Source: a virus
Virus genome (UHGV): UHGV-1682877
Reading direction: 5' to 3' (one strand)
Length of the DNA: 64,000 bases
Shown: positions 1 through 140 of the stretch, in pieces
Layout of the letters: every line of letters starts with the position of its first letter
Position numbering within the stretch: the first letter of the stretch is position 1
Program-made: the position numbers and the translations under genes
The notes under the pieces: generated by a model
Database searches by the model: none
Told to the model about the DNA's origin: nothing
What the model saw: the letters and a program-made list of their open reading frames with translations, nothing else

Positions 1-140
1 AAGCACTTCTCCATTTTAAAATATTTTAAGAGATTTTATTATAAGCACTTCTCCATTTTAAAATATTTTAAGAGATTTTATTATAAGCACCTTTCCATTT
101 TAAAATATTTTAAGAGATTTTATTATAAACACTTCTCTAA
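1..140. repeat. 42-bp direct tandem repeat, about 3.3 copies (unit aagcacttctccattttaaaatattttaagagattttattat); array may continue upstream of the window
   Basis: Seen in sequence: units at 1-42, 43-84, 85-126 (2 mismatches) and a decaying copy from 127. Confidence 0.85.

What the first reader, a model, noticed from the sequence alone, without database searches (positions are those of the whole stretch)
1..140. 42-bp tandem repeat array at the window edge
At least 3.3 tandem copies of a 42-bp AT-rich unit, the first two identical, lie at the 5' edge; the array may extend upstream. Iterons of this kind typically mark replication origins, packaging sites or binding arrays for partition or regulatory proteins.
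Basis: seen in the sequence. Interest (0 to 1): 0.5.

Follow-up and report, generated by a model that had tools for sequence, protein, structure and literature searches.

The report
Variable repeat array before phage gene cassette
The 42-bp repeats are real and mark a conserved but fast-changing non-coding array just upstream of a two-gene cassette in an uncultured ~138-kb gut phage; it most likely binds a protein that controls that cassette, which is an ordinary kind of element whose exact job is unproven.

Summary
Window 1-137 holds three full 42-bp units, the first two identical and the third with 2 mismatches, plus a partial fourth.

The window is the early/replication half of an uncultured ~138-kb, ~30% GC phage with a distantly SPbeta-like replication module. 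Eleven related lineages carry an array at the same intergenic position. The order is: upstream gene, hairpin, GC-rich inverted repeat, array, near-invariant leader, gene 1.

Only a 12-bp core (TCTCTATTTTAA) and ~10.5-bp T-tract phasing are kept. Unit length (21-43 bp), core number (1-6) and core spacing (19-70 bp) all vary. One relative has the window's unit as a single copy, so the window's array is a recent amplification. At least eight contig ends from about seven assemblies (five phage lineages) fall inside it.

The core forms an array nowhere else in ~94% of a composite genome.

- **Rejected:** coding repeat, tandem ordinary promoters, dispersed operator or late-promoter word.
- **Not supported:** partition site, packaging site or genome terminus.
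- **Still open:** replication origin.

Best reading (about 0.4): a protein-binding regulatory array for the terminator-bracketed gene 1-2 cassette, which alone lacks the lineage's consensus promoter. It is a new member of a known kind, of modest interest.

The parts
1..42 (+). Repeat unit 1 (AAGCACTTCTCCATTTTAAAATATTTTAAGAGATTTTATTAT); the window edge cuts the array here
43..84 (+). Repeat unit 2, identical to unit 1
85..126 (+). Repeat unit 3, 2 mismatches to units 1-2
127..142 (+). Partial fourth unit that merges into the conserved leader. It holds the terminal degenerate core TCTCTAATTCGT (134-145), which sits at a fixed distance from the ATG in all lineages
8..19 (+). Core motif copy 1 (TCTCCATTTTAA; lineage consensus TCTCTATTTTAA). 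Further copies at 50-61 and 92-103, start-to-start 42 bp
143..206 (+). Conserved untranslated leader (95% mean pairwise identity over -45..+14 across 9 lineages). RBS GAGGTG at 195-200. No consensus sigma-A promoter and no stable or covarying RNA structure
207..677 (+). Gene 1, 156 aa. Lineage-restricted ORFan, beta-rich N-terminal domain, no family or fold assignment
689..1099 (+). Gene 2, 136 aa, hydrophobic N-terminus (by inspection of the translation), weak match to a PHROG 'membrane protein'. Always follows gene 1 in relatives
1104..1142 (+). Intrinsic terminator (13-bp stem, T-run) that closes the gene 1-2 cassette. It is followed by the lineage's -10 module TATAAT-ATATATAGAAA at 1152-1168

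Best explanation
The array is a non-coding, iteron-like stack of binding sites (core TCTCTATTTTAA plus T-tracts phased about every 10.5 bp) for a sequence-specific DNA-binding protein. It acts as the control region of the gene 1-2 cassette immediately downstream. Shown: the array is intergenic, positionally and directionally conserved, and forms an array at only this locus in the genome. It lies between a terminator-like hairpin and a highly conserved leader. The cassette is closed by its own terminator and is the only unit in the neighbourhood without the lineage's consensus sigma-A promoter. Inferred: a phage or host protein bound cooperatively along the array, helped by a moderately curved and easily melted helix, recruits or blocks RNA polymerase at a weak, non-consensus start site near the last unit. 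Slippage changes copy number and spacing, as in the window's recent 42-bp amplification, and so could tune expression. The binder is not identified. Gene 1 is the nearest candidate, but nothing shows it binds DNA.
For: The same position and orientation hold in 11 other lineages: upstream 163-184-aa gene, hairpin, GC-rich inverted repeat, array, leader, gene 1. The core is kept while unit length (21, ~30, ~32, 42-43 bp) and core number (1-6 per lineage, the single-core case being a contig cut inside the array) differ. Flanking T-tracts recur at +10 and +21. L012 has the window's unit as a single copy, so the amplification is recent. The core at <=1 mismatch forms an array only at this locus, in the window and in 78 kb of the IMG/VR relative. 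Isolated single 1-mismatch hits exist elsewhere. Fifty-seven near-consensus promoters trained a lineage model (scores 6.9-40.6), yet the best score upstream of gene 1 in 11 lineages is -2.2, at non-conserved positions. The cassette is bracketed by a hairpin and the terminator at 1104-1132. The leader is among the best conserved segments. TT periodicity at 10.5 bp is the strongest of 3193 windows, and 0/300 shuffles reach it in 4 lineages. Predicted curvature is in the top 2.5%. The array is the least stable duplex segment in 3 of 6 loci. Bent DNA upstream of a promoter activates C. perfringens plc (Katayama 1999, cited in PMC3518907).
Against: No transcription start, promoter or binding protein has been identified. 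Gene 1 has no DNA-binding family or fold. Its only hint is a chance-level YejK hit (E = 0.026). Core spacing is not consistently an integer number of helical turns (29-33, 56 and 70 bp also occur). Predicted curvature is uneven (0.71-0.92 against a median of 0.96). Part of the phasing is T4A4, which does not bend (control). Read-through from the upstream gene's promoter could express the cassette without any local promoter. The same anatomy also fits an iteron origin, and the two roles are not mutually exclusive.
Confidence: 0.4

Rival explanations
1. Iteron-type replication origin. An initiator, possibly the ORFan gene 1 product as with the small T4 oriE proteins (my recollection, not checked here), binds the direct repeats and melts the AT-rich array to load the phage DnaB-like helicase.
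For: There are several direct repeats with a conserved core forming an array at one locus only. The array is the least stable duplex segment in 3 of 6 loci and in the top 0.5-2% in the others. It has helical phasing and some curvature. Iterons adjacent to an AT-rich region, often carrying poly-A tracts, are typical of origins (PMC7145576). The phage encodes its own helicase, primase and Pol III alpha, and no initiator has been identified elsewhere.
Against: The array lies 38-57 kb from the replication module. There is no DnaA-box cluster. GC skew only dips locally and does not switch. Spacing is irregular across lineages. Gene 1 has no Rep-like family or fold. The core is identical across lineages whose neighbouring proteins have diverged to 60%, whereas initiator-iteron pairs usually co-vary (general knowledge).
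Confidence: 0.25
2. Functionally neutral minisatellite. An AT-rich, slippage-prone spacer keeps amplifying and decaying, and the shared core reflects common descent and homogenisation rather than selection.
For: The units in the window are perfect and therefore young. Unit length and copy number differ in nearly every lineage. The two ends of one circular assembly differ by one unit. Other tandem duplications of 22-42 bp occur nearby in this lineage.
Against: Independent amplifications of different unit lengths all retain the same 12-bp core, the same orientation and ~10.5-bp T-tract phasing. The array persists at one position across lineages whose flanking proteins are only 56-93% identical. 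It abuts one of the most conserved segments of the locus.
Confidence: 0.15
3. Packaging signal or physical genome terminus (pac site or short direct terminal repeat). Contigs would end here because virion DNA ends here.
For: The window and at least eight contig ends, including both ends of a 137.7-kb IMG/VR genome, fall in this locus. SPbeta-group phages open their genome in an intergenic region ~8-10 kb from the terminase gene (bioRxiv 10.1101/2021.11.22.469490).
Against: End-points are scattered over the array and leader instead of stacking at one base. Several assemblies with degenerate arrays read straight through (L004, L006, L018, L021). Portal and terminase lie ~20-25 kb away on the opposite-strand block, and the array is not at the divergence point. 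SPbeta's opening region has no tandem array.
Confidence: 0.07
4. A stack of ordinary host sigma-A promoters (tandem promoter duplication) that boosts transcription of gene 1.
For: Each unit contains TTTAAA-N16-TATTAT (9/12). Tandemly duplicated promoter-sized units occur elsewhere in the lineage (17455-17569; L004 7704-7777).
Against: Promoter-like hits in 1-1300 are not enriched over shuffles (10 found against 7.4 +/- 2.9). The lineage's own promoter model scores every site here at or below -2.2, against 6.9-40.6 for real promoters, and the best sites are not positionally conserved.
Confidence: 0.06
5. In-frame 14-residue coding repeat at the C-terminus of a gene that runs off the window edge.
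For: Plus frame 1 is open across all units (KHFSILKYFKRFYY x3) and stops at 145-147, 60 nt before gene 1.
Against: About 23% of shuffled units are open in any given frame. No protein among 5.8 billion carries the peptide. In all 10 relatives analysed the array has stops in all three + frames, and where the sequence is available the upstream gene ends at a hairpin >90 nt before it.
Confidence: 0.01

Closest known systems
Iterons of plasmid and phage replication origins that also autoregulate the adjacent gene (lambda ori, P1 oriR, RepA_N replicons, PLE ori; T4 oriE with repEA/repEB from my own recollection)
   Same: Several same-orientation direct repeats with a conserved core, at a single locus, AT-rich and easily melted, with some helical phasing, immediately upstream of small genes
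   Different: No recognisable initiator, no DnaA boxes, irregular spacing between lineages, far from the replication genes, and replication not tested
Promoter-upstream bent DNA or UP-like elements (C. perfringens plc phased A-tracts, Katayama 1999; SP82/SPO1 early promoters from my own recollection)
   Same: T/A-tracts phased at ~10.5 bp upstream of a gene in a low-GC Firmicute-type system, with predicted curvature above background
   Different: No consensus -35/-10 follows the array. A sequence-specific 12-bp core is conserved in addition to the tracts. Part of the phasing is the non-bending T4A4 type
SPBRE, the 15-bp operator of the SPbeta master repressor MrpR (PMC10516654)
   Same: A conserved short repeated element in intergenic regions of a phage with a related replication module, bound by a phage regulator
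   Different: SPBRE is dispersed as single sites at ~10 promoters. This core is tandem and confined to one locus
Centromere-like arrays upstream of par operons (R1 parC, pSK41 parC, tubC of pBtoxis and phage c-st; my own recollection)
   Same: Tandem direct repeats that double as the promoter region of the operon they precede
   Different: The downstream genes are an ORFan and a small membrane protein. There is no ParM/ParA/TubZ NTPase or recognisable adaptor
Promoter-proximal variable-number tandem repeats of bacterial contingency loci (general knowledge)
   Same: Copy number differs between close relatives and apparently within one sample. The array sits just upstream of a cassette encoding a membrane protein
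   Different: Units are 21-43 bp rather than 1-7 bp. No evidence yet that copy number changes expression

Membership tests
Iteron-type replication origin | Three or more direct repeats of one binding motif at a single locus | tested here: met
   1-6 cores per lineage (three or more in most; the single-core case is a contig cut inside the array). The core forms an array at one locus only in ~94% of a composite genome
Iteron-type replication origin | Regular spacing in whole helical turns | tested here: inconclusive
   21, 42 and 42-43 bp in some lineages, but 19-20, 29-33, 39-40, 45, 56 and 70 bp in others
Iteron-type replication origin | Adjacent easily unwound AT-rich element | tested here: inconclusive
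   The array itself is the least stable 120-bp segment in 3 of 6 loci and in the top 0.5-2% in the rest. No separate unwinding element was recognised
Iteron-type replication origin | Adjacent initiator gene and/or DnaA boxes | tested here: not met
   Gene 1, gene 2 and the upstream gene have no Rep-like family or fold. No DnaA-box cluster
Iteron-type replication origin | Supports initiation of replication; compositional skew switch | tested here: not met
   No durable GC-skew sign change. Initiation itself is not testable with these tools
Promoter-upstream bent DNA / UP-like element | A/T tracts phased with the helical repeat | tested here: met
   The TT Fourier peak at 10.5 bp is the highest of 3193 windows. 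0/300 shuffles reach it in the window, L004, L006 and L010, and 2/300 in L011. L009 is not significant
Promoter-upstream bent DNA / UP-like element | Intrinsic curvature | tested here: inconclusive
   Wedge-model end-to-end ratio is 0.86 in the window (top 2.5%) and 0.71-0.92 in relatives, against a median of 0.96. Parameters were recalled from memory but pass the A4T4/T4A4 controls
Promoter-upstream bent DNA / UP-like element | Lies directly upstream of a recognisable core promoter | tested here: not met
   The lineage promoter model gives at most -2.2 in 11 lineages, against 6.9-40.6 for training sites
Dispersed phage operator (SPBRE / stoperator type) | Many copies spread over promoters of the genome | tested here: not met
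   At <=1 mismatch the core forms an array only at this locus. Outside it there are only isolated single 1-mismatch hits
Partition centromere (parC / tubC type) | Array precedes an operon encoding a partition NTPase and a centromere-binding adaptor | tested here: not met
   The downstream genes are an ORFan and a membrane protein. No ParA/ParM/TubZ family was found among the window ORFs tested
pac/cos site or direct terminal repeat | Fixed molecular end; proximity to terminase genes | tested here: not met
   Contig ends are scattered through the array and leader. Portal and terminase are ~20-25 kb away. True virion ends are not testable here
Coding tandem repeat | Reading frame maintained across relatives | tested here: not met
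   Stops in all three + frames in all 10 relatives analysed. No such peptide in the protein database

The most novel reading that the evidence does not exclude
The array is a phage 'contingency' element: a slippage-prone stack of binding sites whose copy number varies even within one population. It would act as a rheostat for a moron-like cassette (an ORFan plus a membrane protein). Alternatively it could be a boundary element within the early region, such as a lineage-specific origin or a T5-like DNA-transfer stop signal lying ~10-19 kb into the rightward early block.
Probability: 0.12. Interest if true: 0.6.

Novelty: new member of a known kind. Interest (0 to 1): 0.3.

Why it matters
If the array is a protein-binding control region, it gives an experimental handle on an otherwise opaque, widespread family of ~120-140-kb gut phages. 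It offers a defined 12-bp site to fish for its binder, and a cassette whose regulation differs from the dozens of consensus-promoter early genes around it. If it is instead the origin, it would be the first origin candidate for this SPbeta-related replication module. On the practical side, the array breaks metagenome assemblies of this phage repeatedly and can mimic a terminal repeat in completeness calls.

Tried and rejected
- **Repeat peptide search:** no protein in the 5.8-billion-protein database carries it.
- **Repeat unit in IMG/VR:** the 42-mer has no match.
- **Gene-1 relatives in IMG/VR by peptide patterns:** none found.
- **Cultured-phage DNA similarity:** none for window 1-3000 or for the L021 locus.
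- **Prophage search:** the invariant leader has 0 hits in GTDB species genomes.
- **Rfam on window 1-1400:** only chance hits.
- **RNA structure of the leader:** z = +0.41, 0 compensatory pairs.
- **Gene 1 function:**
  - The AF2 model has pLDDT 67.6.
  - Profile searches found nothing either: no PDB profile hit, and no Pfam, PHROG or PADLOC hit.
  - There is no remote homologue in 1.84 billion representatives.
  - The faint YejK hit did not strengthen.
  - The afdb50 fold library was unavailable.
- **Upstream 181-aa gene and lone minus-strand gene:** no families.
- **Strict helical phasing of the core:** looked good with six lineages but failed when more were added, so I withdrew it.
- **Strong intrinsic bend:** downgraded after the wedge model.
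- **SPbeta comparison:** its opening region has no comparable array.
- **Homology between the 1-137 array and the 17455 array:** only low-complexity similarity.

Full report
**1. Observation**

The repeat is real. TRF finds a 42-bp period, 3.3 copies and 94% matches at 1-137 (score 253). Units 1-42 and 43-84 are identical. Unit 85-126 has 2 mismatches. Positions 127-142 form a partial fourth unit that runs into unique sequence. No other copy exists in the 64 kb, and no dinucleotide shuffle produced a match.

**2. Genomic setting**

- The window is ~30% GC. All large ORFs lie on the + strand up to 63.7 kb.
- It carries 17 tRNA genes.
- It encodes topoisomerase II, ligase, a DnaB-like helicase, primase, a RecJ-like nuclease, a Dda-like helicase, Pol III alpha and NrdD.
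- Pol III alpha and the RecJ-like protein are 37-39% identical to SPbeta YorL and YorK. No cultured phage is similar at the DNA level.
- Relatives assemble to 133-140 kb.
- The leader has no hit in 185,579 species-representative genomes, so no prophage form was found.

**3. Why the array sits at the window edge**

Three other assemblies of the same phage begin inside the array. L001 and L003 are 100% identical to the window and L002 is 99.9% identical. They start at window 130, 130 and 108.

Contigs of four other lineages also start or stop in their arrays: L008, L016, L017 and L020. A 137.7-kb IMG/VR genome has both of its ends there. Those ends overlap by ~170/201 nt and differ by one 31-bp unit. 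In all, at least eight contig ends from about seven assemblies fall here, besides the window's own edge.

The end-points are scattered across the array and leader, and assemblies whose arrays are degenerate read straight through. I read this as repeat-induced breakage plus copy-number heterogeneity, not a physical terminus. The real length of the window's array is unknown but at least 3.3 units.

**4. Comparative anatomy**

Homologues of gene 1 (60-96% identical) and of the gene upstream of it led to 11 further lineages.

All lineages that span the region share one layout:
- a 163-184-aa gene;
- a GC-rich terminator-like hairpin;
- a variable spacer;
- a GC-rich inverted repeat (GTGCTGCGCAGAGCAC);
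- the array;
- a leader from TTCGTAAAC to the ATG;
- gene 1, then gene 2.

Within the array only two things are kept: a 12-bp core, TCTCTATTTTAA, and T-tracts recurring at about +10 and +21.

| Lineage | Core start-to-start spacing (bp) |
|---|---|
| window | 42, 42 |
| L004 | 43, 40 |
| L006 | 42, 43 |
| L009 | 56, 30 |
| L010 | 30, 29 |
| L011 | 21 x4, then 42 |
| L012 | 42 |
| L013 | 20, 33, 29 |
| L018 | 39, 43 |
| L021 | 70, 45 |
| IMG/VR relative | 19, 31, 22, (31) |

(Spacings.)

L012 holds a single copy of nearly the window's exact unit, so the window's array is a recent amplification. In all 10 relatives analysed the array has stops in all three + frames, and no database protein carries the repeat peptide. 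The coding reading is therefore rejected.

**5. Uniqueness**

At <=1 mismatch the core forms an array only at this locus. This holds in the window, where the only other hit is a minus-strand site at 17775, in the relatives' flanks, and in 78 kb of the IMG/VR relative. I reached that relative by walking through its structural half, where the only hit is a single intragenic 1-mismatch site. Together these cover about 94% of a composite genome. The core is therefore not a dispersed operator such as SPBRE, nor a late-promoter word.

**6. Physical properties**

- **Phasing.** TT periodicity peaks at 10.5 bp and is the strongest of 3193 windows (3.10 against a 99th percentile of 1.21). Four of five relatives tested also beat their shuffles.
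- **Curvature.** A wedge-model calculation uses parameters recalled from memory but reproduces the A4T4-bent and T4A4-straight controls. It puts the window's array in the top 2.5%. Relatives score 0.71-0.92 against a median of 0.96. This is moderate and uneven curvature.
- **Duplex stability.** The array is the least stable 120-bp segment in 3 of 6 loci and in the top 0.5-2% elsewhere.

**7. Transcription map**

The lineage has many near-consensus sigma-A promoters. Relatives show 12/12 TTGACA-N17-TATAAT sites about once per gene in the 10 kb upstream. The window shows TTGAAA-N17-TATAAT-ATATATAGAAA downstream, at 4145, 4953, 8086, 13221 and 14014.

A model trained on 57 such promoters scores them 6.9-40.6. 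It scores nothing above -2.2 upstream of gene 1 in 11 lineages, and the best sites fall at non-conserved positions.

Genes 1-2 are closed by a strong terminator at 1104-1132. They therefore form a two-gene cassette with its own unusual control region.

The leader reaches 95% identity over -45..+14, compared with about 75-80% across the rest of the cassette. It has no stable or covarying RNA fold and no Rfam match.

**8. Candidate binders and neighbours**

Gene 1 is an ORFan:
- no Pfam, PHROG, NCBIfam or PADLOC assignment;
- no PDB profile hit;
- nothing in BFVD;
- no homologue outside its own cluster among 1.84 billion representatives.

Gene 2 looks like a small membrane protein. The upstream gene and the lone minus-strand gene are also unassigned.

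No partition NTPase, Rep-like protein or terminase is nearby. Portal and terminase lie ~20-25 kb away on the opposite-strand block. There is no DnaA-box cluster and no durable GC-skew switch.

**9. Interpretation**

The best-supported reading (about 0.4) is a cis-acting, iteron-like protein-binding array that controls the gene 1-2 cassette. The shown steps are position, orientation, single-locus array, core conservation, absence of a consensus promoter and cassette boundaries. Binding, the identity of the binder and any effect on transcription are inferred.

An iteron origin remains a serious rival (about 0.25), and the two roles could coexist. The other readings score lower:
- neutral minisatellite, about 0.15;
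- packaging site or terminus, about 0.07;
- tandem ordinary promoters, about 0.06;
- coding repeat, about 0.01.

**10. Comparison with known systems and novelty**

The array works like iterons or promoter-upstream arrays. It fails defining features of each specific family I tested:
- **Iteron origins:** no initiator and no DnaA boxes.
- **plc-type bent DNA:** no core promoter follows the array.
- **SPBRE:** the core is not dispersed.
- **parC/tubC:** no partition genes are present.
- **pac/DTR:** no fixed end and no adjacent terminase.

I class it as a new member of a known kind, namely phage intergenic direct-repeat binding arrays, in an uncharacterised phage lineage. Interest is modest (0.3). 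The most novel reading still open is a copy-number-variable 'rheostat' or a boundary element. I give it about 0.12 probability.

Noticed in passing
window 17455-17569: A second 42-bp tandem array (2.8 copies, 82% matches) lies directly upstream of tRNA-Gln (17584). Its units carry TTTACA/TTTCTA-N18-TATTAT-like hexamers, and it is one of the least stable duplex segments in the window. Its similarity to the 1-137 array is only low-complexity.
   Followed up: partly
window 14649-17659 and 25100-26358: Seventeen tRNA genes lie in two clusters. ARAGORN calls one (16876-16948) with a four-base anticodon 'tgaa' and no amino-acid assignment. A GIY-YIG homing endonuclease (16195-16842) sits inside the first cluster.
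   Followed up: no
window 18224-19456; L026:1359-2615 and L026:8222-8665: An ORF with an Mtd_N (major tropism determinant) domain lies in the window. A reverse transcriptase and a DNA invertase lie in the 137.7-kb IMG/VR relative. Together they suggest a diversity-generating retroelement and/or invertible tail-fibre system in this lineage.
   Followed up: no
window 28149-29210 and 36251-37051: Two phage peptidases (subtilase-like and C39-like) carry S-layer-homology (SLH) domains. This points to a host with an SLH-anchored cell wall.
   Followed up: no
window 26571-34251: A possible RNA-repair set: PHROG 850 RNA-binding protein (26571-28094), RNA ligase (29596-30873), NinI-like phosphatase (31750-32535), AAA_33 kinase-like (33194-33706) and a metallophosphoesterase (33709-34251). 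It lies next to the second tRNA cluster.
   Followed up: no
window 4145-4173, 4953-4981, 8086-8114, 13221-13249, 14014-14042, 1152-1168; L004/L006 1-7800: Two classes of near-consensus promoter modules. TTGAAA-N17-TATAAT followed by ATATATAGAAA recurs in the window. Perfect TTGACA-N17-TATAAT recurs about once per small gene in the 10 kb upstream in relatives. This resembles a host-takeover early region.
   Followed up: partly
L004:7883-9175 (same in L006, L010, L011, L018, L021): About 1.5 kb upstream of the array, the only minus-strand gene in the region (210-235 aa, no family) is flanked by a ~650-nt space. That space holds long palindromes (for example AAAATTGTACTCATTTTTGTGTAT / ATACACAAAAATGAGCACAATTTT) and looks like a genetic-switch or operator region.
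   Followed up: partly
L018:10529-10540, L021:10535-10546: The last codons and stop of the upstream gene (GAT TCT CTA TTT TAA) are an exact copy of the array's 12-bp core. Other lineages differ there at 2 positions. This may be chance, or a hint that the array arose by duplicating the gene's 3' end.
   Followed up: no
L023:215-285 (IMG/VR UViG_3300045988_145614): A separate tandem repeat of about three 22-bp units (GATAAATGAGAATTGAAGAT) lies between the hairpin and the GC-rich inverted repeat in this relative. The spacer upstream of the array is therefore expansion-prone too.
   Followed up: no
L133:234-5947: In the IMG/VR relative the terminase-like region next to the portal gene (L133:6367-7989) is interrupted by HNH and GIY-YIG homing endonucleases. 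An ORF at L133:234-869 matches a PHROG annotated as a sigma factor.
   Followed up: no
window 207-1099: The gene 1-2 cassette has negative GC skew (-0.20) and a pyrimidine-rich + strand. The surrounding early genes have a skew of +0.14. This compositional oddity is consistent with a moron-like insertion.
   Followed up: partly
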